The notes under the pieces: model-generated
What the model saw: only the letters and a program-made list of their open reading frames with translations
Told to the model about the DNA's origin: nothing
Databases searched by the model: none
Made by a program: the position numbers and the translations under genes
Assembly (NCBI GenBank): GCA_964564905.1
Contig: CAZMCI010000001.1
Span: 7,986 to 71,985 of the forward strand
Length of the DNA: 64,000 nt
Direction: 5' to 3'
Source: Candidatus Hadarchaeota archaeon
GTDB lineage: Archaea > Hadarchaeota > Hadarchaeia > Hadarchaeales > Hadarchaeaceae
Part shown: piece after piece, positions 8,702 through 57,059 of the stretch
How positions within the stretch are numbered: the first letter of the stretch is position 1
Layout: each line of letters opens with the position of its first letter

Positions 8702-8884
8702 TGAAACACCTTTTGATTTTTTTAGTTATTGCTTAAAAATTTGGTGTCTGAGAAACAAGATTAACTCTATTTCTTAGATTGAGCCTAGGTCCAAAAAAAA
8801 CGTGTAATCTTCACCCAATCTGAAAATTGATCCCCAACTCCTCGAAAAAACAATGCCCCAATGAACTTCCCGGAACCATCCCCC

Positions 8885-8902
8885 CGGCGGTAAAGTTAAA
8901 TA
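8885..8902 (+). promoter_or_regulatory. Promoter-like element CGGCGGTAAAGTTAAATA (BRE+TATA candidate) about 36 nt upstream of the sepF TTG start
   Basis: The same 16-mer core is found upstream of the hypothetical gene at 22725, at psmB (12505-12520, minus strand), and as a variant upstream of minD (53527-53544). Confidence 0.35.
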
Positions 8903-11811: not shown

Positions 11812-12504
11812 TTAAATTAATTTTTTGATCTGTTCAGGTGTCAGCTCAAAATAACCTCCCTTGGTCACGGACGCCGCCATAACTTCGTTTCCGGTGGCGA
11901 TATCCCGTCTCATCGCCGTTTTTATAGCTTTAACTGCTATCGGCAATGCCGTGTCGACCTTCGTGCCCTCCTTGAACTCCGTTTCGAGCACCCCATACGC
12001 CACCGGAGATCCGGAACCGGTAGCGAGCATTTTCTCCTCGACCAAACCTCCGTCCATGCTTACGAAGAACAATTTTGGTCCCGCCCGGTCCACCCCGCCG
12101 ATGAGAAGATGGGCCATGTAAGGGAAAAAGCTATATGCGTTCATGATATTCGCCACCAGCCTAGCACATGCTTGTACGTCCATCGGGATCCCCTCGCGCA
12201 TCGAGTAATATCCTGCTTCTGCTCTCATCACGTCAACAAGACGCTGAGTATCAGCCACGCCCCCCGCGGTAGTAAAGGCGATATTGTCGGTTATCTTGTA
12301 GATCTTTCTGGCCTTTTTGCTCGCTATCTCGTAATCCATGGTAGCACGAGTATCCGTGGCCAAGACTACTCCATCTTCGCACACGAGGCCAACCGTCGTC
12401 GTACCTTTCAGATATTTCAGTTTCTCATCTTTCAGGTCCCTCAATTCAACACCGTCCGAAAAACGCTGCGTTAAAAGCAGCAATTTAGTGCTGGAGTTAG
12501 TCAT
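11812..12504 (-). CDS. psmB: Proteasome subunit beta. The start is uncertain: the first ATG is at 12504, and an alternative TTG gives a ~14-aa propeptide.
   Basis: Mature N-terminus GTTTVGL, Ntn-hydrolase fold motifs. The ORF track's longer 260-aa version has an implausible N-terminal extension. Confidence 0.8.
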   Translation of the reverse strand: MTNSSTKLLLLTQRFSDGVELRDLKDEKLKYLKGTTTVGLVCEDGVVLATDTRATMDYEIASKKARKIYKITDNIAFTTAGGVADTQRLVDVMRAEAGYYSMREGIPMDVQACARLVANIMNAYSFFPYMAHLLIGGVDRAGPKLFFVSMDGGLVEEKMLATGSGSPVAYGVLETEFKEGTKVDTALPIAVKAIKTAMRRDIATGNEVMAASVTKGGYFELTPEQIKKLI

Positions 12505-12520
12505 ATTTAACTTTACCGCC
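12505..12520 (-). promoter_or_regulatory. GGCGGTAAAGTTAAAT motif directly abutting the first ATG of psmB
   Basis: The reverse complement of 12505-12520 reads GGCGGTAAAGTTAAAT, followed by ATG. Confidence 0.3.
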
Positions 12521-12739
12521 AGGAAGCCCCCTTCCGCGATGGAGGGGCGAAGAAGCGAGTTTTTTCTATATAAAGAACCTCCGGCTAAATACATGGGGGA
12601 TGAGTCGATGCTATCGTACAGATTCGGTTTCTATCCATCAAAAATGGTACAAAGAAGTCCCGTCACTGGAGCAGGAAGCTCCCTGCGAAAGCTGGGGGAG
12701 AGTTCACATCTTATCAGCCGCCAAAAAAGCGGTGCGCGG

Positions 12740-13786
12740 TTGAAGGAATCCAAATGCATCCAGCTTCCCCGTGAGGTCTGGATGGGTCCAAAGGTAATTT
12801 CCCAGCTGGCTGACGTCTGCAAACGACTCTGTCCTGGAAACCGCACGTTGATAGTGGCGGACCGTACCACCTACAGGCTAGCCGGCCAGAAAGTTGAGGA
12901 ATTGTTCCGGCAGGCGAAATTCAAAGCAGACCATGTGTTGATAGAGCAAGCTGACATGAAGACGGTCAAAAACGTCAGACGGCTGGTAAGGAGAAAGAGT
13001 GATTTTTTGCTTGGTCTTGGAGGAGGAAGATGTATCGATGTGGCAAAGCTGGCATCCTTCGAGGAAGGCATACCCTTCGTCTCAGTTCCGACAGCCGCTT
13101 CTCACGATGGTATAGCTTCATCCAGAGCATCCATCCTTGGAAAACGTAAACCTACCTCAGTTGAGACCCATGCCCCGATAGCGATCGTCGCGGATACGCT
13201 TATCATAAAAAGTGCGCCCCATAGACTGCTCGCTGCTGGATGTGGAGACCTGGTCGCAAATTTCACCGCAGTCCGGGACTGGCAGCTGGCCCACCGCCTG
13301 AAGGGAGAGCCCTACAGTGAGTACGCTGCTACTCTCTCTTTAGTGAGTGCTCAGATAGTAATGGAAAATGCAAAGTTCATCAGTCGGCATACCGAGAAGA
13401 GCGTGAGAAAAGTGGTGAAGGCGCTCATTTCCAGCAGTGTGGCGATGGCGATAGCTGGAAGCAGCAGACCCGCGAGCGGGGCGGAGCATTTGTTCAGCCA
13501 TGCTCTTGACCTCATCGCTCCCAAGCCAGCGCTCCACGGCGAGCAGTGTGGAGTTGGGACAATAATGATGGCTTACCTTCACGGTGAGGATTGGCAGGAA
13601 ATCAGAAAAACGCTTCAGATAATTGGGGCCCCGACGAACGCGAGAGAGCTTGGCATCCCTGCTAAATACATCGTCAAGGCGCTCACGATTGCTCACCGCA
13701 TAAGGCCGGAGCGCTACACAATTTTAAAAAAAGGTCTGAAACCCCGTGCGGCCGAACAACTTGCGAAGATCACCGGCGTCATTTAG
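12740..13786 (+). CDS. egsA: Glycerol-1-phosphate dehydrogenase [NAD(P)+] (archaeal lipid backbone synthesis). Start proposed at TTG 12740; upstream in-frame ATGs at 12608/12644 would add an atypical ~30-45-aa extension.
   Basis: IQLPREVWMGPKVI...LIVADRTTY N-terminal G1PDH motif, Fe-ADH/DHQS-like fold. 349 aa from the TTG. Adjacent to a UbiA prenyltransferase. Confidence 0.7.
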   Translation: MKESKCIQLPREVWMGPKVISQLADVCKRLCPGNRTLIVADRTTYRLAGQKVEELFRQAKFKADHVLIEQADMKTVKNVRRLVRRKSDFLLGLGGGRCIDVAKLASFEEGIPFVSVPTAASHDGIASSRASILGKRKPTSVETHAPIAIVADTLIIKSAPHRLLAAGCGDLVANFTAVRDWQLAHRLKGEPYSEYAATLSLVSAQIVMENAKFISRHTEKSVRKVVKALISSSVAMAIAGSSRPASGAEHLFSHALDLIAPKPALHGEQCGVGTIMMAYLHGEDWQEIRKTLQIIGAPTNARELGIPAKYIVKALTIAHRIRPERYTILKKGLKPRAAEQLAKITGVI

Positions 13787-20557: not shown

Positions 20558-22477
20558 CTAAACCGCCACCTTCACTCGGGAAGCACCTGCGAGATTTTGG
20601 ACTGTTATCACGTGAGGCACACCCTCCAGGCTCACCAGCTGACCGGGAGTTATAACAATGTACTGGGTCTTCTCCCCCTTCATAAAATCTATGATCCCAG
20701 AAAATATCGCCTCCCGGTTGCGTGGATCGAGATGAGCCTCAAATTCATCAATCGCGCGGATCGGTGATTGAATCCGTTGTTGAAGCGCCAGCAGAAAACA
20801 CATGATCGCGGTGGTGCGTTCTCCTCCACTTTGAGTGTACGCATCGAGCACCTGAGGCGCCGCGCCTTTAAACCCAACGAGTAACTCCAGCCCAGCTTCA
20901 TCTATGTCCTGGAGATTGACCGCTCGAACGTCGCCAACTGCGTGAACCTTTTCCAACACTTCAGCATACTTTTTCTTGAGTTCCCGGAACAACTCATTTA
21001 TCTCGTCGACCCATCGCTGTTTTCTCAGCTCCAACTCCTCAAGTGCCCGACGTCGATTTGCCGCGGCAACTTCGGCCTTTGCCTCCAGTTCTTTCAACGT
21101 GCTTCTGTAGTTCAGATACATCCGTTCAACATCGGGGGATACGTCGGCAAGATTTGCAAGCTTCATGTTCGTGAACTTCAGCTCGTCCAAGACCTCCTGA
21201 GGCTTTCGCTTGGTCTCTACCCTGGGACCTATTCTCTTGGCCTCATTCTCGAGTTGTTCGAGCTCTCGTCTGACCCTGCGCAGCTCTGACCGAGCTGCAG
21301 AAACGTCCCTTTCGAGGAGTTCTCGTCTGAGACCAAGAACCGCTCCTCTGACTCGGGAGCTGACATAGCTCTCATGAACTTGCTCATTTTCCTCCTTTAT
21401 CCTGACGAGCTTGGACCTCGTCTCCTTAGCGTGCGTGCCGGCCTCGACGGAACTCCTCCGAGCCCGCTCGAGCTCTGCTGAGAAACTTTTCACCATTTCC
21501 TCTGGTTCTGCTCCGACCGATCGCAGAGAGCTGCGGATCCACTCCATCAGCTTGACCCTTGCCTCCGATTCGGCCTGTATTCGTTCTTGTTCGATCAATC
21601 TTTGATACGCGCTGTCCAGCTCAAATTCCAGTTCCCTGAGCTTCTTTTCCAACTCCCGTTGCTTTTTGGAGTTTTCACTCAACTCTCCGATGACCTCTTC
21701 TAACTCACCGTTTAATTCATCTAGTTTTGAGTGGAGGGTTCCAGCCACTTCTTCCTGTCTGATGCATTTGGCCCAAGCGTATTCGAGCTCCAGCTTGTTC
21801 TTCATCTCTACGAGTTCCTGCTTTTTCCGAAAACGATGGTATTCTCCCTCCCAATAACGCAGAGTCTCACGGGCTTTTTCAAGCAGGTTTCGGGTGGACT
21901 CCTCCTCACTAAGTGTATGGGAAAGTTTTTCCCTAGCCTCCAAGATCCGTTCGCGGTACTCCCGAAGGCCCACGGCCTCTTCCACAAGCGTCAACCGTTC
22001 GGTGGGATCTATCGCTCCAAATAGGTCAACCATATTCTGATGCATTATGATGAGCATGTTATCCGGGTTGATCGAAAGCCGGCGAAGGAGCCTCAGGACC
22101 TCCCCCTTGGTAACGGTCCTGCCATTTATCTCGTGCCAGTATGTACCATCTCGACTTAGGTAGCGAGAAAGCACGATCGTGTCTGAATTTATGCTGGGGA
22201 TGGGGCGCTTATCGTTGTTGGTGGAGTTGTCGAAGACTATACTAACACGTCCGAGATCCTTTCCCCTACGGATGAGGTCACTGAGCTTTCTGGAGCGTTC
22301 AGTATAGGTCTGTCCCAAGGCCACGGCCAAACCAAGCAATATGGAGGACTTGCCCGCACCATTGGGTCCGCAGATCAAATTGAGTCCGGGACTAAGGGGA
22401 ACCCTGGAATACTCGTGGGACATGAAATTTTCGAGGATGATCTCCCGGACCAAGGCCCTCGTAGGCATGGATACCAA
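20558..22477 (-). CDS. Short SMC-like ATPase (639 aa): Walker A/B head split by a ~330-aa coiled coil, no hinge domain
   Basis: GPNGAGKSS Walker A; signature motif QSGGERT; Walker B/D-loop AIDEFEAHLD; heptad-rich middle. Directly upstream of scpA-scpB on the same strand. Confidence 0.7.
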   Translation of the reverse strand: MVSMPTRALVREIILENFMSHEYSRVPLSPGLNLICGPNGAGKSSILLGLAVALGQTYTERSRKLSDLIRRGKDLGRVSIVFDNSTNNDKRPIPSINSDTIVLSRYLSRDGTYWHEINGRTVTKGEVLRLLRRLSINPDNMLIIMHQNMVDLFGAIDPTERLTLVEEAVGLREYRERILEAREKLSHTLSEEESTRNLLEKARETLRYWEGEYHRFRKKQELVEMKNKLELEYAWAKCIRQEEVAGTLHSKLDELNGELEEVIGELSENSKKQRELEKKLRELEFELDSAYQRLIEQERIQAESEARVKLMEWIRSSLRSVGAEPEEMVKSFSAELERARRSSVEAGTHAKETRSKLVRIKEENEQVHESYVSSRVRGAVLGLRRELLERDVSAARSELRRVRRELEQLENEAKRIGPRVETKRKPQEVLDELKFTNMKLANLADVSPDVERMYLNYRSTLKELEAKAEVAAANRRRALEELELRKQRWVDEINELFRELKKKYAEVLEKVHAVGDVRAVNLQDIDEAGLELLVGFKGAAPQVLDAYTQSGGERTTAIMCFLLALQQRIQSPIRAIDEFEAHLDPRNREAIFSGIIDFMKGEKTQYIVITPGQLVSLEGVPHVITVQNLAGASRVKVAV

Positions 22478-22653
22478 CTTAATTTATGTATTCAAGTGTG
22501 AACTACCCCCAGCTTTCGCAGGGGGCTTCCTGCTTCAGCAGCGGGGCCTGTTTTTGATGGGTAAAGACGGAACCTGTACGAGAGCATTAACTCATCCCTC
22601 ATGTATTTAGCCGGGGGTTCTTTATATAGGAAAACTCGGCTTCTCCGCTCCCT

Positions 22654-22690
22654 CCCTTTCAAAAGGGAACTTCTCGGCGGTAAAGTTAAA
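22654..22690 (+). promoter_or_regulatory. Palindrome CCCTTTCAAAAGGG followed by CGGCGGTAAAGTTAAA (BRE/TATA candidate) upstream of the hypothetical gene at 22725
   Basis: Motif shared with the sepF, psmB and minD upstream regions. Confidence 0.35.
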
Positions 22691-22724
22691 GGAAGTCCAG
22701 TATTTAAATGTGGGGGGTAACTCG

Positions 22725-23429
22725 ATGGTGCTGGTAGCCAAGGTATTCGAATTTAAAGAACCCATAGAACTGTCCATCGCGGCCAAGAAGCTCAAAGATT
22801 TTTCGGAGGAGGAACCATACGAATCCGGAGATAAAAGCACAAAGCTCACCACGGAGATACTCGACCTAAAAATGGAAGGAGAGGTGCTCAGAGGGGTTTT
22901 CAGCAGGGATTTCGTGCTCAGCCGATATTACAAGAGGGGCCTCGTGGAGACCGTGGTCACGGAGGAGGTGCCCTTCCTCATCAAACGGTCTGGTGGGAGA
23001 ACTTTCTTGGTGGTACTCGCACCGTCAAAGGCCCGTGGTGTGAAGAAACTGCTAACCAACTACGTGGCAAACAAGCTCAGCGAGATCCTGTTCATAAAAA
23101 CCGGTGCGATCGTCGAGGTGAAGATCACACACGAGACACTAAAGAACCTACACGAGTCCAACCCTCGGGCGACCAAGCTGATCTGGTTTGATGATGTAGA
23201 CATCCCGGATATAGGAAAGCTCGCCCTCGCGGGATCTGGGCTCGCAGATACCAAGCTTTATCACGAGTATCTAAAACACGGGAAGATATGGTACTGTGTG
23301 TTCGAGGTGCAGAAACGTGGGTTCACGGTAGGAATAACCAGGAATTGTGTGGTAACACTGTTCACGCAAATCGACCCCGAGGAGTTCATCAATTACATTA
23401 TGAATGACGTGCTGCCGCTAATTTCTTAG
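22725..23429 (+). CDS. Hypothetical protein (234 aa from ATG 22725; the ORF track starts at GTG 22710)
   Basis: No recognisable domain. Divergent from the SMC-like operon and carries the shared promoter motif. Confidence 0.5.
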   Translation: MVLVAKVFEFKEPIELSIAAKKLKDFSEEEPYESGDKSTKLTTEILDLKMEGEVLRGVFSRDFVLSRYYKRGLVETVVTEEVPFLIKRSGGRTFLVVLAPSKARGVKKLLTNYVANKLSEILFIKTGAIVEVKITHETLKNLHESNPRATKLIWFDDVDIPDIGKLALAGSGLADTKLYHEYLKHGKIWYCVFEVQKRGFTVGITRNCVVTLFTQIDPEEFINYIMNDVLPLIS

Positions 23430-50298: not shown

Positions 50299-50414
50299 AG
50301 TTAATGTTGTTAGAAATTGTTAAGATTTTGGTTAGATTTTGTTAGAAATAGTTAGCTTTATAAGACAAGGACTGTCAAATGTGGTTAGAAATGGTTAAAA
50401 ATTGTTAGGAAAGG
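50299..50414. repeat. Iteron-like array: at least 8 tandem degenerate copies of (T/G)GTTAGAAAT at ~11-bp phasing in an AT-rich spacer
   Basis: GTTAGAAAT appears three times exactly (50311, 50341, 50384), plus the variants GTTAAGATT, GGTTAGATT, AGTTAGCTT, GGTTAAAAAT, GTTAGGAAA. GTTA offsets are spaced 9-13 bp. Confidence 0.5.
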
Positions 50415-50469
50415 TGAGATTACGGGAGGGGACAAAGCGAGACTTTACACAGTAGGAGAAGCATGTTCT

Positions 50470-51201
50470 GTGCTTGGTATACACCCGAATACTCTCAGGA
50501 GGTGGGACAAACAGGGAAAGATAAAAGTGGTGCGTCATGGAAGGGGCCATAGAAGGATTCCGGAGGAGGAGATCGCTCGGGTACTTCAGAAATCAGAGGT
50601 CTTTGAAAAGAAATCGACCCTATCAGGTCCAGAAAATTTGAAGGAGGAGCTCAAATCCTCGTTTTTGAGATACGTTTTTTTGTATAATCGGGATGATTGG
50701 GAGCTCGTTAAGCGGGCGGTTCTCATTCGGGACAATTATACGTGTGCGAAATGCGGTGGAAAGGAGCTTTTGGATGTCCATCACAAAGATGGGACTTCCC
50801 GTAACGATCCGGATAACCTCATCACCCTATGTAAAAAGTGTCATGGAGAGGTTCATGGTGAGATTTCGGTACAAAAAAAGCATAAAATTGAAACTAAAAC
50901 TCAAATTAAGCATTTAAATAAAACAAAATTTGAAATAAAGACAAAAACATCCCCGGAAAAGAAAGAAATGCCTCGTACAAGCATTATTGATGGACTTACT
51001 CCATCGGGACTTATGGAGCGGACAGCGTTTGGAGGGCTTCTCTCAGGAGCGATTGCGCTGAAAAATTTTACGGTGGAGGAGCTTGCGAATAGGACCAGAT
51101 GTCCGATACCGGTTGCAAAGAAGTTTTGCGAGCGCATGGAGGCGCGCGGCCACGTGTTGAACAAGGATGGGAAGTACGAAATGGTGGTGAAGGTGATCTA
51201 G
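50470..51201 (+). CDS. MerR/excisionase-type HTH + HNH endonuclease domain protein. The HTH first helix is encoded upstream of the annotated GTG start, but no canonical start codon is in frame.
   Basis: The upstream in-frame translation reads ...LYTVGEACSVLGIHPNTLRRWDKQGKI. HNH motif CAKCGG...DVHHKDG...NLITLCKKCHGEVHG. Confidence 0.55.
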   Translation: MLGIHPNTLRRWDKQGKIKVVRHGRGHRRIPEEEIARVLQKSEVFEKKSTLSGPENLKEELKSSFLRYVFLYNRDDWELVKRAVLIRDNYTCAKCGGKELLDVHHKDGTSRNDPDNLITLCKKCHGEVHGEISVQKKHKIETKTQIKHLNKTKFEIKTKTSPEKKEMPRTSIIDGLTPSGLMERTAFGGLLSGAIALKNFTVEELANRTRCPIPVAKKFCERMEARGHVLNKDGKYEMVVKVI

Positions 51202-52079
51202 TGAGCATTTTTGACGATAAGATAGGTCGGGATAAGGTCTTTGAAGACTACCTCATGCGCTGGGGTCTCCAGCACGACCCGTTTCAGTTGGAGATGTCTT
51301 CCATAGATCTCTTCGTACCTGTTCAAGAGGAGGATCTGAGGAAGCTGAAGTGGGTTCTCACTGGGGGAAAATTAGGAGCTCTGGTGGGAGGACTCGGCAC
51401 CGGAAAAACCACGCTATGCGAGTTTTTGGTGGCTTCTTTGAGGGAGGAGAGCCTGCTTGCCCCGGAAAGCTCGAAACTGATCGTACCAGTGTTCGTCCAT
51501 GGCGCTGCTTACCGGTCCATGGATGATGTGCTACGGGCCATAATGCTTGGTTTAGAGATGGACGCTGGAAAGGACCGCGCAAGCATGTTTGAAGTTCTTC
51601 GCAGGTGGCCGTGGGAACATCCAGAGCGCTTAGCACTTGTGGTCGATGACATCCACGAGAGCCGGGTGAATCCTAGGGACATGGGTGAGTTCCTAAGAGT
51701 TCTTGTGGACATCCCAGAGATAACCATCCTGATAAACGGAGAGCCCAAACGAATGCGCGAGTTCTTAGAGAAGGTCCCCGCGCTCAGGGATCGCATCCAG
51801 GTGCACGTTGAGATAAAGCCAATGAGTCCAGAAAGCTTGAGAAAGATGTTGGATCTACGCCTAAAAAACGCTGGTTGCGAAAACGGAGCCGTATTATTGA
51901 CCGAAAGCGGATTTAAAGCGATTTACAGGTTCAGCAAGGGGGTACCACGCCGGGCGCTCAAGCTTGCAAGCAATGCTCTCCGGTACGCGGCGAGGGTTGA
52001 TACACCCATCACGGATAAAGCAGTGAAAAAGGGAAACGGGATCTCCTTTTTTAGACGCTCGTTTGCGAGATGGATTTAA
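51201..52079 (+). CDS. ExeA-like AAA+ ATPase (AAA_16/AAA_22-type P-loop NTPase), start at GTG 51201
   Basis: YLMRWGLQHDPFQLEMSS...LVGGLGTGKTTL Walker A; LVVDDIHE Walker B; overlaps the HNH gene stop. Confidence 0.6.
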   Translation: MSIFDDKIGRDKVFEDYLMRWGLQHDPFQLEMSSIDLFVPVQEEDLRKLKWVLTGGKLGALVGGLGTGKTTLCEFLVASLREESLLAPESSKLIVPVFVHGAAYRSMDDVLRAIMLGLEMDAGKDRASMFEVLRRWPWEHPERLALVVDDIHESRVNPRDMGEFLRVLVDIPEITILINGEPKRMREFLEKVPALRDRIQVHVEIKPMSPESLRKMLDLRLKNAGCENGAVLLTESGFKAIYRFSKGVPRRALKLASNALRYAARVDTPITDKAVKKGNGISFFRRSFARWI

Positions 52080-52552: not shown

Positions 52553-53176
52553 CTACAGAGATACACGTCTGATTACACCGTTCTTTTCGTCTATTTCAAA
52601 GTCTACGAATGCGGTTGGAGCGTGTTTTTTTAGTATCTTCAGCACTTCCATGGCCATTCTCCTGATCTCCCATTGGGCATCCTGCTGTCCCCTTAGCTCG
52701 ATTATGTGACGCCACTCTCTGAAGTTGGCGGTTACCACCACCTGAGTCTCAACGGCGTTTGGTAGCACGAACCGAGCATCTTCCTTTTTGATCCCCACCT
52801 TTTGGAGTTCGGAATACGCCTTTTTAGCTTCGTCCATGAGCTTTGTGAAAATAAGATGGGCTTGGGGGTGGTTTTTTACAGATTCCGGCTCGATGTAGTT
52901 GAAATCGCTTTCATCCACGTATCTCTGAGATTGCTGGCTAAACGAACATAACCTATGTCTCACAAATTGATGTGTGAACGCTCTCGATACGCCGGAGATC
53001 CTGAACGTCGCATATGCGTGCTCCAAGACAGAAAGATGTCCTCTTTTGATCAGCATTTTGAGGAAAGCTTTTTCAGTGTCCTTCCCCTGTTTGGCAAATG
53101 ACTGGTAACAAGTACGAGCAGCGGATTCTATCAATTTCTCAGCATTCGGCGTGATGAACAACAACTCAACTTTCAT
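52553..53176 (-). CDS. thyX: FAD-dependent thymidylate synthase ThyX
   Basis: ThyX motif RHR in ...SGVSRAFTHQFVRHRLCSFSQQSQRY; 207 aa. Confidence 0.85.
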   Translation of the reverse strand: MKVELLFITPNAEKLIESAARTCYQSFAKQGKDTEKAFLKMLIKRGHLSVLEHAYATFRISGVSRAFTHQFVRHRLCSFSQQSQRYVDESDFNYIEPESVKNHPQAHLIFTKLMDEAKKAYSELQKVGIKKEDARFVLPNAVETQVVVTANFREWRHIIELRGQQDAQWEIRRMAMEVLKILKKHAPTAFVDFEIDEKNGVIRRVSL

Positions 53177-53510
53177 TCTCTCCCTCTCGGAAATATGATA
53201 AGTGCCTTTTCTTAATAATCCTCCCTAAGGAGCCCATCCACAGTGTGGATCACTCCAGCTCTCGTGGGGAGCTTCCTGCTTCAGCGACGGGAGATGCTCA
53301 GCGACCACGGCTTGAACGCCGAGTAGGGAGCCCGTCTCCATAGGCGCCGCTTCGGGCTCTTCCAGTTCCACCATATTCCCACTAAAGTTATTCCACAAGA
53401 CCTGATAGTCCCTGTTAGGGAGTTTGTTTCCAAGTTCCCTTCAGGTTCACCCAGCTCAAAAACCGGACCCAACCAAAACCGAAGGCTACGGGTCGCCTCT
53501 CCGTCTTCCT

Positions 53511-53544
53511 CCCTTTCGGAAAGGGACTTCGGTAAAATTAAAAG
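53511..53544 (+). promoter_or_regulatory. Palindrome CCCTTTCGGAAAGGG followed by CTTCGGTAAAATTAAAAG (BRE/TATA candidate) ~30 nt upstream of minD
   Basis: Paralogous to 22654-22690. Confidence 0.35.
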
Positions 53545-53571
53545 AGCATAAATAGACATCAACGTGTTTGT

Positions 53572-54312
53572 ATGGGGAAAGTTCTCGCATTCGCCTCGGG
53601 AAAGGGTGGTTCGGGAAAAAGCGTGGTCACAGCGAACCTCGGGATAGCATTTGCCAAGTTCGGTAAGAGCACCCTGCTCATGGATGCCGATCTGTCGATG
53701 CCGAATCTCGGCATTCTAACAGGCTTGAAAAGCGCTCCTGTGACCCTCTACGAAGTGCTCGACAAAACCAAACCCTTGGATCAAGCTATCTACAAAGTGT
53801 ACGCTGGAGCGGACATCATGCCCTGTGGGACATCATTGGAAGCCTTTTTGAAAGCCGACATCCGCAGGCTGAAAAACGTGGTGGAGAAAGTGAAGGAAAG
53901 GTACGAATATGTTTTAATCGACACGGCCTCCGGACTCAACAAGTACACCCTAGGCGGGTTAAAGGTGGCTGATGAGGTTGTGTGGGTGGTAAACTTGGAC
54001 GAACCTTCCCTCGCCGACACCCACAGGCTGAAAACAGCTGCAGAACTATTCGGACTAAAAACTAAAGGCATGATAGTAAACCGGGTAACTTCCCTTTCTT
54101 GGATAGAGCGAAAAAAGATACCCGCCCCCAAGCGAAACGAGTTGGAGACGAGACTTGGAGCAAAAATTTTGGGTGTAATCCCCGAAAGCAGGGAGGTTTA
54201 CAAGGCCACATTGCTTCAAAAGCCGGTACTGGAGTACGTCTCAAAGGGGAAAATCATGAAAGCCTTTAGGGAGTGTGCGAGAAATCTGTTGCTGGAAAAT
54301 ATGAACCAATAA
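53572..54312 (+). CDS. minD: MinD/ParA-family ATPase (archaeal MinD-like)
   Basis: Deviant Walker A ASGKGGSGKS; 246 aa. Confidence 0.8.
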   Translation: MGKVLAFASGKGGSGKSVVTANLGIAFAKFGKSTLLMDADLSMPNLGILTGLKSAPVTLYEVLDKTKPLDQAIYKVYAGADIMPCGTSLEAFLKADIRRLKNVVEKVKERYEYVLIDTASGLNKYTLGGLKVADEVVWVVNLDEPSLADTHRLKTAAELFGLKTKGMIVNRVTSLSWIERKKIPAPKRNELETRLGAKILGVIPESREVYKATLLQKPVLEYVSKGKIMKAFRECARNLLLENMNQ

Positions 54313-54353
54313 AAAGAATCGATGAAGAATCCCTGCCGTCTTGTGCCTAACCT

Positions 54354-54959
54354 TTATATTTTTCGTGCCACTCTGGGTAAAGTTATTTCCTTTTGTGCTT
54401 GGTAGATACCTTTCTTGTCCCTGTAGCTCACCAAACACCCCTCATCGCTCTCTAGAAATATCACCTGCGCTATGCCTTCATTCGCGTAGATCTTCGTGGG
54501 GCTGGGTCCCACATTGGCGATCTCTATCGTAACATGCCCCTGCCACTCGGCCTCCAGGGGAGTGATGTTGACAACCACTCCACATCTAGCATAGGTCGAC
54601 TTGCCGAAACAGAGCGCCATGACCTTTCTCGGTATTCTAAAGTACTCAACCGACCTTCCGAGCACAAAAGAATTTGGTGGGATATCGCATGTCTTTCCCC
54701 TGAAATCTCTGAACAGGGTTTTGTCGAAGTGCTTCGGGTCGAGTACGCTTTTTTCCTTGGGTTCGTAGATCTTGAACTCGTCCGCTAGGCGCATGTCGTA
54801 ACCGTAGCTGGAGAGACCGTAGGAGATATTGCCTTCGCGGACTTGGTGATCGACGAAGGGTTCGATCATGCGGTGTTTGAGGGCCATCTCGCGGATCCAT
54901 CTGTCTGCTTTTAACATATCTTTCATCCAGTTTGGGCTCCCTACCGCCAGCTGATTCAA
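54354..54959 (-). CDS. dcd: dCTP deaminase (dcd family; possibly bifunctional dCTP deaminase/dUTPase). The start may be an internal ATG (MLKADR...).
   Basis: dUTPase-fold beta-barrel, ...[10 protein letters not shown]...[17 protein letters not shown]... Confidence 0.8.
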
Positions 54960-54965
54960 GCACGC

Positions 54966-57059
54966 TCAGGTGAACTCGATTCGTTGTCTGAATTCCTCTT
55001 GTTTTCCGGTATTCCAGTTTTTCACAGGTCTGTAGTACCCGACGACGCGGGAATAGATCTCCGTGTCCGTTCCACAAGTCGGGCATTTTGGATACTCACC
55101 AGGCATGAAACCGTGGTCCGGACAGACCGTGTATGTGGGACTCACGGTGAAGTATGGCAGTCTCGTGTTGAAGGCAACCTTTCTCACAAGATTCTTGCAG
55201 CTCTCTCCATCCTCCAAGCTCTCTCCTATGAACATGTGAACCACAGTGCCTCCGGTGTAGAGAGTCTGTAGCTCCTCTTGGTGTTTTATGACGGATATAA
55301 GGTCCATCCCACTGTTCACTGGTAAGGTGGTCGAGTTCGTGTAGTATGGGGCCCGCTCTCCTGCCGTTATTATGTTCGGGTACTTGCGTTTGTCTATCTT
55401 GGCCAGCCTGTAACTCACTCCTTCGGCAGGGGTCGCCTCTAGGTTGTATATATTTCCGGTTTCCTCCTGAAATTGCTTGATACGCTCGCGCATGAATTTT
55501 AGCGTTCGAACCGCAAACTTTTTTCCTTCTTCGGTGGCTATCCCAGTTCCAAACAGGTTCAGCAGGGCTTCGTTCATTCCCACCAGGCCTATGGTCGAGA
55601 AGTGATGTTTCAGGGTGCCCAGATATCGTTTGGTGAATGGTAACAGTCCGTTCTCCATGTTTTTGCTTACCACTTCTCGCTTGACTTCAAGGGATATCTT
55701 CGCCAGCTCCATCACGTATTCCAATTTCTCGAAGAACTCGTCCTCGTTCTTGGAGAGGTAGCCCAACCGGGGCATGTTTATGGTCACTACCCCTATGGAT
55801 CCCGTGGAATCACCCGATCCAAAAAGACCCCCGGTCACGTTTTTCCTCAACTCTCTCAGGTCGAGCTGAAGCCTACAGCACATCGACCTGACATCGCTTG
55901 GTTTCAGGTCGCTATTGATAAAATTCTGAAAATAAGGGAGGCCATATTTAGCGGTCATCTCGAACAGTGCAGGCGATATTCCATTGTCCCACTCGAAATC
56001 CCTTGTAAGTGAGTAAGTTGGGATTGGAAACGTGAATGGCCGACCGTTCATGTCCCCTTCGCTCATCACCTCAATGAACGCGCGATTTATCATTTCCATC
56101 TCCTCCACATAATCCCCGTATGTCTCGTCCTGGAGTTTTCCGCCGACCACCACGTGTTCTCCTGCTAGGTCATCCGGAACGGTGAGGTCCAGGGTCACGT
56201 TGGTGAACGGCGTCTGTCCGCCCCAGCGGGAGGCGATGTTCAAGTTGAACACGAACGTCTGTATCGCCTGCTTTACCTTTTTGTAATCCAACCCGTCCTT
56301 TCTCACAAAGGGAGCCAGCATGGTGTCAACCCCGTTGAAGGCTTGGGCTCCAGCCCACTCGTTCTGGAGGGATCCTAGGAAGTTCGCCATCTGGAGCAGG
56401 GCTGTGTCGAGATGAGCTGGGGGCTTGGAGGCCACCTTGCTCGGGACTCCGTTGAACCCCTCAGCCAGAAGCTGTCGCAAACTCCAGCCGGCACAGTAGC
56501 CAACTATTCCGGAACCAAGATCATGGATGTGCATGTCCCCGTTCGTGTGAGCATCCGCGACCTCCATCGGGTAAATTTTATCCAGCGTGTAATTTGCAAT
56601 CACAGACGTGGCGATGTGATACATCAGGCCGGAGTAGGAGTATCCCATGTTGCTGTTCTCCCTGACCCTCCAGTCACGCCCGCCCGTGTAGTCATCAACC
56701 AGCCGTTCGACCTCCAGAAACGTTGATTTTATCTTTCTGAGTTCCTCGTGTTGCTTGCGGTACAGGATATATGCCTTGGCGGTCCTAGCGTGCCCCCGTT
56801 CGATCAAAACCTTTTCCACGATGTCTTGGATGTCCTCAACGCTGGGCGTTTGGTTCGCATATTTTTCCTCGAGGATCTTTACGACCTCATTTGACAGCCT
56901 TTCCGCGATCCTTCGGTCCCGACCACCAACCTCGCGAGCTGCCGCGAAGATCGCGTTGGTGATGCGTTCCTGATCGAAGTCCACGATCCTGCCGTCACGC
57001 TTTTTCACCTTCTTGATTGTCCCGCTCATGGCTCTTCCTCCAAGTTCAGTCCAGTCCAC
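54966..57059 (-). CDS. nrdD: Anaerobic ribonucleoside-triphosphate reductase (class III RNR, NrdD)
   Basis: N-terminal ATP-cone (KVKKRDGRIVDFDQERI); C-terminal zinc ribbon and glycyl-radical region CPDHGFM...CPTCG...RVVGYYRP. Confidence 0.85.
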   Translation of the reverse strand: MDWTELGGRAMSGTIKKVKKRDGRIVDFDQERITNAIFAAAREVGGRDRRIAERLSNEVVKILEEKYANQTPSVEDIQDIVEKVLIERGHARTAKAYILYRKQHEELRKIKSTFLEVERLVDDYTGGRDWRVRENSNMGYSYSGLMYHIATSVIANYTLDKIYPMEVADAHTNGDMHIHDLGSGIVGYCAGWSLRQLLAEGFNGVPSKVASKPPAHLDTALLQMANFLGSLQNEWAGAQAFNGVDTMLAPFVRKDGLDYKKVKQAIQTFVFNLNIASRWGGQTPFTNVTLDLTVPDDLAGEHVVVGGKLQDETYGDYVEEMEMINRAFIEVMSEGDMNGRPFTFPIPTYSLTRDFEWDNGISPALFEMTAKYGLPYFQNFINSDLKPSDVRSMCCRLQLDLRELRKNVTGGLFGSGDSTGSIGVVTINMPRLGYLSKNEDEFFEKLEYVMELAKISLEVKREVVSKNMENGLLPFTKRYLGTLKHHFSTIGLVGMNEALLNLFGTGIATEEGKKFAVRTLKFMRERIKQFQEETGNIYNLEATPAEGVSYRLAKIDKRKYPNIITAGERAPYYTNSTTLPVNSGMDLISVIKHQEELQTLYTGGTVVHMFIGESLEDGESCKNLVRKVAFNTRLPYFTVSPTYTVCPDHGFMPGEYPKCPTCGTDTEIYSRVVGYYRPVKNWNTGKQEEFRQRIEFT

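What the first reader, a model, noticed from the sequence alone, without database searches (positions are those of the whole stretch)
22478..22709. Paralogous bidirectional intergenic regions: smc-like/hypothetical and thyX/minD share two conserved blocks
Block 1 is CCAGCTYTCGYRGGGRGCTTCCTGCTTCAGCRRCGGG (22509-22546 and 53255-53292; 33 of 38 identical). It lies 40-110 nt upstream of the minus-strand genes (smc-like, thyX), next to a CTTAAT(T/A) TATA-like box. Block 2 is CTCCGYYYCCTCCCTTTC-N-GAAAGGGAACTTC..GGTAAARTTAAA. It lies upstream of the plus-strand genes (hypothetical 22725, minD). The two divergent promoter regions are therefore duplicates of one regulatory module. The 53-kb copy has an extra ~150-bp GC-rich insert. 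The gene quartet (SMC-like, ThyX, MinD-like, unknown) fits DNA-synthesis, segregation and division co-regulation. Alternatively the blocks are ends of a small repeated RNA or MITE-like element.
Basis: seen in the sequence. Interest (0 to 1): 0.55.

Follow-up and report, generated by a model that had tools for sequence, protein, structure and literature searches.

The report
Gene-less remnants of a TnpB transposon
The two shared "promoter blocks" are the left and right ends of small, gene-less copies of an IS200/IS605-type (TnpB) transposon that inserted next to TTTAA sites between divergent genes of a Hadarchaeota archaeon, so they are ordinary mobile-element remnants and not a shared regulatory module.

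Summary
The blocks are real, and the window holds three copies, not two: 12511-12707 (+), 22498-22685 (-) and 53245-53537 (-).

Block 1 is the right end (RE) of an IS200/IS605-family element. In related Hadarchaeota contigs it ends a tnpB gene and forms the 3' part of its guide-RNA (omega RNA) scaffold, finishing at ...GTTCAC|. Block 2 is the left end (LE) with its subterminal hairpin, preceded by the target motif TTTAA.

- Copies 1 and 2 consist of the LE, the tnpB promoter, about 13 tnpB codons and the last ~55 nt of the RE.
- Copy 3 consists of the LE and the last ~60 tnpB codons, which cover the whole omega RNA scaffold.

Related genomes have precise empty sites for copies 1 and 2. The insertion lies exactly 3' of TTTAA with no target duplication. 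These features fit palindrome-associated transposable elements (PATEs), the IS605-type analogue of MITEs.

One secondary point is inferred only. The TTTAA targets look like TATA boxes of the RE-side genes, so the elements may now supply those genes' promoter or leader.

This is a new member of a known kind and of low interest.

The parts
22498..22685 (-). PATE copy 1 (subfamily A, 188 nt). It consists of the LE, the tnpB promoter, 13 tnpB codons and the last ~55 nt of the RE.
   Evidence: The ends match the LE and RE of tnpB-bearing elements. L068 and L071 have a precise empty site.
22686..22690 (-). TTTAA target / transposon-adjacent motif (TAM) of copy 1.
   Evidence: TTTAA precedes the LE in nearly all of the elements whose LE was found; L030 has GTTAA. 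In the empty site the sequence reads TTTAA|AGTTGAAT.
22647..22670 (-). LE subterminal hairpin of copy 1.
   Evidence: Coordinates. The hairpin is kept with different sequence in copy 2.
22620..22629 (-). Retained tnpB promoter-like box CTATATAAAG, pointing toward the RE and the SMC-like gene.
   Evidence: Identical in copy 1, copy 2 and L038. Promoter function is inferred, not shown.
22549..22587 (-). Remnant of the tnpB 5' coding end (MLSYRFRLYPSKT).
   Evidence: tblastn against the TnpB of L009 and L023.
22498..22526 (-). RE terminal hairpin (GCCCCCTGCGAAAGCTGGGGGT) plus the transposon end ...GTTCAC.
   Evidence: The flanks diverge immediately after GTTCAC in all loci.
12511..12707 (+).
   Evidence: the repeat finder I1, I2 and I4. 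blastn E = 6e-43 to copy 1. L039 and L040 have an empty site, and L038 has the orthologous filled site.
12506..12510 (+). TTTAA target (TAM) of copy 2. Read on the minus strand it is part of TTTAAATA upstream of the proteasome-beta gene.
   Evidence: Alignment A3.
53245..53537 (-). PATE copy 3 (subfamily B, 293 nt). It consists of the LE and the last ~60 codons of tnpB, which cover the whole omega RNA scaffold. The ends are decayed: 4 nt are missing in the LE and the end reads ATCCAC instead of GTTCAC.
   Evidence: tblastn gives 52% identity to TnpB residues 318-378. It is homologous over its full length to the 295-nt element in L064, which lies at a different site.
53245..53372 (-). Omega RNA-like scaffold retained in copy 3.
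   Evidence: It aligns with 19 RE regions. The consensus has five helices, and the copy-3 change in the terminal hairpin is compensated, C-G to U-A.
53538..53542 (-). TTTAA target (TAM) of copy 3.
8883..8900 (-). Possible solo LE fragment (TTTAA|CTTTACCGCCGGG), 40 nt upstream of an ORF.
   Evidence: 16-18-nt match to the LE, blastn E = 0.01-0.035. Weak; it could be chance.

Best explanation
The window carries three non-autonomous derivatives of one IS200/IS605-family insertion sequence. The parent is tnpB-only, IS1341-like and about 1.25-1.35 kb, and some copies also carry a Y1 tnpA. These derivatives match palindrome-associated transposable elements (PATEs).

Block 2, read on the other strand, is the left end: TTTAA|CTTTACCGCC followed by a subterminal hairpin. 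Block 1, read on the other strand, is the right end: a GAAA-loop hairpin followed by ...GTTCAC|. In full-length elements the right end overlaps the 3' end of tnpB and forms the last helices of its omega (guide) RNA.

Internal deletions removed nearly all of tnpB but kept the two ends that a Y1 transposase (TnpA) needs. Inferred step: the deletion derivatives were then moved in trans by TnpA through the single-strand 'peel-and-paste' route and inserted 3' of TTTAA without duplicating the target.

Surviving copies lie in divergent intergenic spacers. Insertions there are tolerated, and TTTAA in this 51% GC genome occurs disproportionately in intergenic DNA (32% of sites in 13% of the sequence), where it resembles TATA boxes.

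Shown here: the homology of the ends to tnpB elements, the exact boundaries, the empty sites, the lack of target duplication and the conserved RNA structure. Inferred: mobilisation by TnpA, expression of any RNA, and any present-day effect on the neighbouring genes.
For: 1. A genome scan with a block-1 pattern hit 11 Hadarchaeota contigs and one Methanomethylicaceae contig. In those with enough sequence, block 1 is followed by reverse-strand coding DNA.
2. That ORF is TnpB. Pfam gives OrfB_IS605 at 1.7e-28, plus HTH_OrfB_IS605 and Cas12f1-like_TNB. The PDB search gives ISDra2 TnpB at E = 3.6e-45. The stop codon lies 5 nt before the end ...GTAGTTCAC.
3. Full-length elements start with TTTAAC|TTTACCGCCGGGAAGTCCCCTTCCGAAAGGGAGGGG, which is the reverse complement of block 2. 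Element lengths are 1237-1348 nt, or 1613 nt where a frameshifted IS200-type tnpA is present.
4. Copies 1 and 2 contain TnpB codons 1-13 and the last ~16 codons. Copy 3 contains the last 61 codons.
5. Empty sites exist for two copies. The spacers in L039 and L040 are ~100 nt, against 307 nt in the window, and match it on both sides of the junction...TATTTAA|AGCTTATC... versus ...TATTTAA|[197 nt]|ATCTTATC.... L068 and L071 match the copy-1 spacer base for base, with only one 1-nt difference in length, once 22498-22685 is removed. Neither site has a target duplication.
6. TAM TTTAA and end TTCAC differ at positions 3 and 5, as in ISGst2 (TTTAT / TTCAC; PMC10055086). TTTAA is also the TAM of Sulfolobus islandicus IS200/IS605 elements and SisTnpB1 (bioRxiv 10.1101/2023.03.06.531077).
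7. The last ~133 nt of 20 elements fold into five helices. 96.4% of cells are paired, against 30-48% when the partners are slid. Eight pairs show compensatory changes, and 0 of 500 shuffles reach the observed covariation score.
8. The 293-nt form recurs as a 295-nt element at a different site in L064. 66-nt terminal-only forms occur at two different sites, in L026 and L056.
9. The features fit the published PATE definition (PMC3119063).
Against: - No tnpA or full tnpB lies in the 64-kb window, so an in-genome source of transposase is not shown.
- The only tnpA seen, in L009, is frameshifted.
- Copies 1 and 2 are only ~79% identical by blastn, and copy 3 has mutated ends. Recent mobility is therefore unlikely, and these may be old, fixed relics.
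- No empty site could be found for copy 3, because ThyX synteny differs in relatives.
- No Rfam family matches the RNA, so calling it an omega RNA rests on position, structure and analogy.
Confidence: 0.93

Rival explanations
1. Exapted PATEs: the elements are transposon relics that now provide the promoter and/or 5' leader of the genes on their RE side (the SMC-like ATPase gene and egsA). The insertion split those genes from their original TTTAA TATA box. This is an add-on to the main explanation, not an alternative origin.
For: - In the empty sites, TTTAA lies about 30 nt upstream of the co-oriented start codon. In L068 the first T is 35 nt from the SMC-like ATG. In L039, TATTTAAAG lies ~38 nt from the G1PDH TTG.
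- After insertion, no A/T-rich box remains between the RE and those start codons.
- CTATATAAAG is identical in copy 1, copy 2 and L038 and points at these genes.
- In roughly 13-16 of 30 distinct insertion sites, a same-strand long ORF starts 24-46 nt past the RE. By a crude count, only ~8 of 106 TTTAA sites in the window have such a position.
Against: - There are no transcript data.
- The archaeal promoter assignments are by eye, and the gene starts are crude.
- The enrichment can be explained by survivorship of intergenic insertions alone.
- Copy 3 has its own A/T-rich box between the RE and thyX and no internal TATA.
Confidence: 0.3
2. One reading: a duplicated bidirectional cis-regulatory module, bound by a common regulator, that co-regulates DNA-synthesis, segregation and division genes.
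For: All copies lie in divergent promoter regions, and block 2 ends in an A/T-rich box near the plus-side genes.
Against: - The module is absent from the orthologous spacers.
- The third copy flanks proteasome and lipid-synthesis genes.
- The same ends flank tnpB genes in many unrelated contexts.
- Any element inserted in a divergent spacer has this geometry automatically.
Confidence: 0.02
3. Copy 3 is a stand-alone guide-RNA gene. It is transcribed, loaded onto a TnpB encoded elsewhere in the genome, and directs cleavage of the empty TTTAA + ACTGTGGATGGG... site. That would preserve the element, or serve a domesticated nuclease or repressor.
For: Copy 3 keeps all five helices of the scaffold, including a compensated pair. 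The same deletion form occurs at a second site, in L064. Such homing is the known role of omega RNAs (PMC10055086).
Against: - No tnpB lies in the window.
- No promoter is evident in copy 3.
- 6 nt are missing from the helix-4 loop region, and the end motif is mutated.
- There are no expression data.
Confidence: 0.15
4. An independent family of small regulatory RNA genes or riboswitch-like leaders, unrelated to transposons.
For: Local hairpins show compensatory differences between copies.
Against: - Whole-element folds are no better than shuffled sequence: z = -1.6, -0.1 and +0.3.
- There is no Rfam match.
- Copies 1 and 2 lack the 5' strands of the main helices.
- The insertion/empty-site evidence and the tnpB remnants explain the sequence fully.
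Confidence: 0.02

Closest known systems
Palindrome-associated transposable elements (PATEs) of Haloquadratum walsbyi and Natronomonas (Dyall-Smith et al. 2011, PMC3119063), and the PATE-like elements of Geobacillus stearothermophilus (Meers et al. 2023, PMC10055086)
   Same: - No terminal inverted repeats, and near-terminal palindromes at both ends.
- A 4-5-nt target 5' of the LE, and no target duplication.
- Too short to encode a protein.
- The ends are shared with IS605/IS1341-type tnpB elements.
- They arise by core deletion that can leave short coding remnants; 52-66-nt 'terminal-only' forms exist.
   Different: - The host phylum is different (Hadarchaeota).
- The end sequences are different.
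- Subfamily A here keeps the tnpB promoter and first 13 codons.
- All three window copies lie in divergent spacers, next to TATA-like TTTAA sites.
IS200/IS605-family elements with TnpB and omega RNA: ISDra2, ISGst2, and the Sulfolobus islandicus elements with SisTnpB1
   Same: - The parent element encodes a TnpB that matches ISDra2 TnpB at E = 3.6e-45.
- The structured RNA overlaps the tnpB 3' end and stops at the RE boundary.
- TAM TTTAA is the same as for SisTnpB1.
- The TAM/TEM pair differs at positions 3 and 5, as in ISGst2.
   Different: - The window copies have lost tnpB.
- Copies 1 and 2 keep only the 3' ~52 nt of the scaffold.
- The Hadarchaeota tnpB ORF runs to 5 nt before the transposon end and appears to lack the zinc-ribbon cysteines.
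Classical MITEs (TIR + TSD elements mobilised by DDE transposases)
   Same: Short, gene-less, multi-copy, intergenic and dependent on a transposase supplied in trans.
   Different: They have no terminal inverted repeats and no target-site duplication. The ends are asymmetric (LE differs from RE), and the insertion chemistry is a different, single-strand Y1 mechanism.

Membership tests
PATE / non-autonomous IS200/IS605 derivative | The ends are homologous to the LE and RE of IS605-type (tnpB/tnpA) elements. | tested here: met
   Block 1 is the RE of tnpB elements, and block 2 is the reverse complement of their LE.
PATE / non-autonomous IS200/IS605 derivative | Subterminal imperfect palindromes at both ends, and no terminal inverted repeats. 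| tested here: met
   The LE hairpin is TCCCCTTCCGAAAGGGAGGGG and the RE hairpin is GCCCCCTGCGAAAGCTGGGGG. The termini CTTTACC... and ...GTTCAC are not inverted repeats.
PATE / non-autonomous IS200/IS605 derivative | Insertion 3' of a short specific target, without target-site duplication. | tested here: met
   The empty sites read TTTAA|AGCTTATC (L039, L040) and TTTAA|AGTTGAAT (L068, L071). TTTAA is present once, 5' of the LE, in all three window copies and in all but one (L030, GTTAA) of the related elements whose LE was found.
PATE / non-autonomous IS200/IS605 derivative | Too short to encode a transposase. | tested here: met
   The copies are 188, 197 and 293 nt and contain only tnpB remnants.
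PATE / non-autonomous IS200/IS605 derivative | Mobilised in trans by a Y1 TnpA. | not testable with these tools
   No tnpA lies in the window, and the one in L009 is frameshifted. Indirect support: the same deletion forms occur at different sites (copy 1 vs copy 2; copy 3 vs L064; L026 vs L056).
TnpB omega RNA (reRNA) | Encoded at the tnpB 3' end / RE and ending at the transposon boundary, so that the flank serves as guide. | tested here: met
   The conserved ~133-nt block ends at GTTCAC|, and the flanks are unrelated. This holds for full-length elements and copy 3. Copies 1 and 2 keep only the last ~52 nt.
TnpB omega RNA (reRNA) | Conserved secondary structure supported by covariation. | tested here: met
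   Five helices, 96.4% of cells paired, eight compensated pairs, and 0 of 500 shuffles reach the covariation score. Caveat: the sequences are closely related and the region is also coding.
TnpB omega RNA (reRNA) | Transcribed, processed and bound by TnpB, and guides TAM-dependent cleavage. | not testable with these tools
   This needs RNA-seq and biochemistry.
Curated Rfam RNA families (all of Rfam 15) | Covariance-model match at or near the gathering score. | tested here: not met
   No hits for the window at gathering thresholds. Only E > 1 noise in 22400-22800. No hits at E <= 1 in L009, L023 or L064.
Classical MITE | Terminal inverted repeats and target-site duplication. | tested here: not met
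   The ends are asymmetric and nothing is duplicated at the empty/filled junctions.
   The module is absent from L039, L040, L068 and L071, where the flanking genes are syntenic and 80-84% identical at the protein level.

The most novel reading that the evidence does not exclude
This Hadarchaeota IS605/TnpB family, with target TTTAA, preferentially ends up exactly at the TATA boxes of near-leaderless genes, between the TATA box and the transcription start. The host genes, including essential ones such as egsA and the SMC-like ATPase gene, are then expressed by transcription that starts at or inside the element and reads out through the RE. If so, the PATEs of subfamily A are retained because they carry the tnpB promoter. 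The transposon and its relics would be wired into core-promoter architecture, and the omega RNA guide would be the gene's own 5' end.
Probability: 0.25. Interest if true: 0.45.

Novelty: new member of a known kind. Interest (0 to 1): 0.2.

Why it matters
The main value is for annotation. These spacers should be labelled as IS200/IS605-derived PATEs, not as conserved regulatory motifs or sRNA genes, and ORFs that read through them are artefacts. An example is the 482-aa ORF 12338-13786, and the 395-aa G1PDH call in L038 is another. The work also defines the ends, the TAM (TTTAA) and the omega RNA scaffold of a compact Hadarchaeota TnpB family, which may interest people mining TnpB nucleases. 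If the TATA-box link holds, it would be a tidy example of a transposon target motif coinciding with the archaeal core promoter element. That remains an inference.

Tried and rejected
- **Rfam:** scans of the window, the region and three related loci gave nothing.
- **tRNA/tmRNA scan:** nothing found.
- **Whole-element RNA folding:** the three copies fold no better than shuffled sequence, so a stand-alone structured sRNA was rejected for copies 1 and 2.
- **Empty site for copy 3:** ThyX homologues at 81% identity sit in a different context (PhoU-ThyX-DCD). The only contig with identical ThyX (L037) has the same filled site.
- **tblastn for TnpA and TnpB in the window:** only the remnants inside the three copies were found.
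- **MAFFT alignment of the copy-1 spacer with its empty sites:** the alignment was poor. The collinearity was read directly from the sequences instead.
- **Literature search for Hadesarchaea + TnpB:** no papers.
- **Bacterial hits of the genome scan (L002-L007 and others):** these lack the GTTCAC end and are chance matches in GC-rich genomes.

Full report
**Observation.**
- Block 1 is 31/38 identical between 22509-22546 and 53255-53292.
- The matches are unlikely to be chance. blastn E-values within the window are 5e-6 for block 1 and 8e-4 for block 2. The block-2 hairpin motif occurs only there.
It lies on the opposite strand at about 12506-12707 and matches the 22.5-kb copy over its whole length (repeat finder arms 83% complementary; blastn 79%, E = 6e-43).
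- The 53-kb copy shares only the two ends with the other two copies. Its middle is different sequence, not an insert.

**What the blocks are.** Rfam and tRNA scans found nothing. The whole elements do not fold better than shuffled sequence.
- A scan of one genome per species with a degenerate block-1 pattern hit 11 Hadarchaeota contigs and one Methanomethylicaceae contig. The remaining hits were GC-rich bacterial chance matches.
- In the archaeal hits that hold enough sequence, block 1 is followed by ~100 nt that match the middle of the 53-kb copy, and then by reverse-strand coding DNA.
- That ORF is TnpB. Pfam gives OrfB_IS605 at 1.7e-28, HTH_OrfB_IS605 and Cas12f1-like_TNB. The PDB search gives ISDra2 TnpB at E = 3.6e-45.
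- Read in the tnpB direction, block 1 is the extreme right end of the element. The ORF stops at TAG, 5 nt before ...GTAGTTCAC, and the flanks become unrelated immediately after GTTCAC in every locus.
- The same elements begin with TTTAAC|TTTACCGCCGGGAAGTCCCCTTCCGAAAGGGAGGGG, which is the reverse complement of block 2.
- L009 also has a frameshifted IS200-type tnpA between the LE and tnpB.
- A metagenome scan added 27 loci. Most are full-length tnpB-only elements of 1237-1348 nt with these ends.

**Anatomy of the window copies**.
- Copy 1 is 22498-22685 on the minus strand, with TAM TTTAA at 22690-22686.
- Copy 2 is 12511-12707 on the plus strand, with TAM at 12506-12510.
- Copies 1 and 2 have the same build: the LE with its hairpin, a CTATATAAAG box, the first 13 tnpB codons (MLSYRFRLYPSKT), and then the last ~55 nt of the RE.
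- Copy 3 is 53245-53537 on the minus strand, with TAM at 53542-53538. It has ~110 nt of LE-side sequence joined to the last ~61 codons of tnpB (52% identity by tblastn).
- Copy 3 is homologous over its full length to a 295-nt element at an unrelated site in L064. This deletion form therefore spread as such.
- L026 and L056 carry 66-nt terminal-only forms at two different sites.
- No tnpB or tnpA lies in the window.

**Proof of insertion.** The arrangement FttA-proteasome beta <- -> G1P dehydrogenase is conserved in relatives.
- L039 and L040 (G1PDH 80-82% identical) have a ~100-nt spacer, against 307 nt in the window.
- Both sides match across the junction...TATTTAA|AGCTTATC...GCGGTGAGCGGTTGAAGG versus ...TATTTAA|[12511-12707]|ATCTTATC...GCGGTGCGCGGTTGAAGG.
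- L038 (86% identical) carries the same element at the same site.
- For copy 1, L068 and L071 (neighbouring 234-aa protein 83-84% identical) have a 55-nt spacer. It is collinear with the window spacer, apart from one 1-nt difference in length, once 22498-22685 is removed. The junction is TTTAA|AGTTGAAT on the element strand.
- Both insertions lie exactly 3' of TTTAA, with no target duplication and no terminal inverted repeats. This is the IS200/IS605 signature.
- TAM TTTAA and end motif TTCAC differ at positions 3 and 5, as reported for ISGst2 (TTTAT / TTCAC; PMC10055086).
- TTTAA is also the TAM of Sulfolobus islandicus IS200/IS605 elements and SisTnpB1.
- All features match the published definition of PATEs, including origin by core deletion (PMC3119063).

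**The RNA in block 1.** The last ~133 nt of 20 distinct elements were aligned and folded.
- They form five helices, with 96.4% of cells paired against 30-48% when the partners are slid.
- Eight pairs show compensatory changes, and 0 of 500 shuffles reach the observed covariation score.
- By position and by analogy this is the omega RNA scaffold. It matches no Rfam family.
- Copy 3 keeps the whole scaffold, including a compensated C-G to U-A pair in the terminal hairpin.
- Copies 1 and 2 keep only the 3' strands of helices 2 and 3 plus the terminal hairpin, so they cannot form the full scaffold.
- What copies 1 and 2 do keep are the two hairpin-bearing ends that a Y1 transposase recognises. That role is inferred from IS608 and ISGst work, not tested here.

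**Why they sit in promoters.** Any element in a divergent spacer automatically has a gene start on each side, so the geometry alone says nothing about regulation.
- In both empty sites, however, the TTTAA target sits about 30-38 nt upstream of the start codon of the gene on the RE side. That is where an archaeal TATA box of a near-leaderless gene would be.
- Among 30 distinct insertion sites, roughly 13-16 have a same-strand long ORF that starts 24-46 nt beyond the RE.
- By a crude count, only 8 of 106 TTTAA sites in the window have such a position. 34 of the 106 are intergenic, although only 13% of the window is non-coding.
- The simplest reading is survivorship. Insertions are only tolerated between genes, and intergenic TTTAA sites are often TATA-like.
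- A more interesting possibility, at about 25-30%, is that the split genes are now transcribed from the host TATA through the element, or from the retained tnpB promoter box. There are no transcript data to test this.

**Verdict.** The elements are PATE-type relics of a TnpB transposon family in a Hadarchaeota genome. Source identity rests on the ThyX, G1PDH and 234-aa protein best hits. This is a new member of a well-known kind, useful for annotation and otherwise ordinary.

Noticed in passing
L009:5548-6696, L023:2680-3819 (related loci, not in the window): The Hadarchaeota TnpB proteins (376-382 aa) seem to lack the zinc-ribbon. Only ~6-8 residues separate ...GTSQ/GTSK from the DRDY motif, there are no CxxC pairs in the C-terminal 70 aa, and the Pfam TNB match covers only positions 1-33 of 60. 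The last ~55 residues are encoded by the omega RNA scaffold itself, and the ORF ends 5 nt before the transposon end.
   Followed up: partly
window 8883-8900 (minus strand): A solo match to the LE start (TTTAA|CTTTACCGCCGGG), 40 nt upstream of an ORF that starts at about 8939. The next ~25 nt end in GGGAAGTTCAT, which faintly resembles an RE end. It could be an extremely short terminal-only relic or chance (blastn E = 0.01-0.035).
   Followed up: partly
window 50304-50407: Four copies of a 19-nt repeat (ATGTTGTTAGAAATTGTTA-like) lie just upstream of an ORF (~50416-51201). By eye its product looks like a MerR/excisionase-type HTH fused to an HNH motif. An AAA_22 ATPase gene (51099-52079) follows. 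This may be operator sites of a mobile-element or regulatory gene, or part of an integrated element next to thyX.
   Followed up: no
window 12338-13786 (+) and 11812-12594 (-): Long mechanical ORFs read straight through PATE copy 2 on both strands. The true starts are probably TTG 12740 for G1P dehydrogenase (the 348-aa form seen in relatives) and 12504 or a downstream TTG for proteasome beta. In L038 the gene caller made the same error, giving a 395-aa G1PDH.
   Followed up: partly
L069 / L070 positions ~430-475 (97%-identical 234-aa protein, close relative of the source): Upstream synteny with the window breaks exactly at the other TTTAA (TTTAAATG, the likely TATA box of the 234-aa gene). 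On the opposite strand it continues with AGGGATAATTCCACCAGTTTATAACTGGTGG, a near-terminal hairpin. This may be the LE of a different IS605-type element inserted at that TTTAA.
   Followed up: no
window 52553-57059: In this genome thyX lies beside a minD-like gene and near the anaerobic ribonucleotide reductase gene nrdD. In the two relatives examined with 80-81% identical ThyX it lies in a PhoU-ThyX-dCTP deaminase context. The thyX neighbourhood has therefore been rearranged.
   Followed up: partly
L018 (contig 3447 nt), L008, L021, L043, L044, L063: Several Hadarchaeota contigs begin or end inside this element's RE or LE. The family is repetitive enough to break assemblies, so copy numbers in MAGs are probably underestimated.
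   Followed up: no
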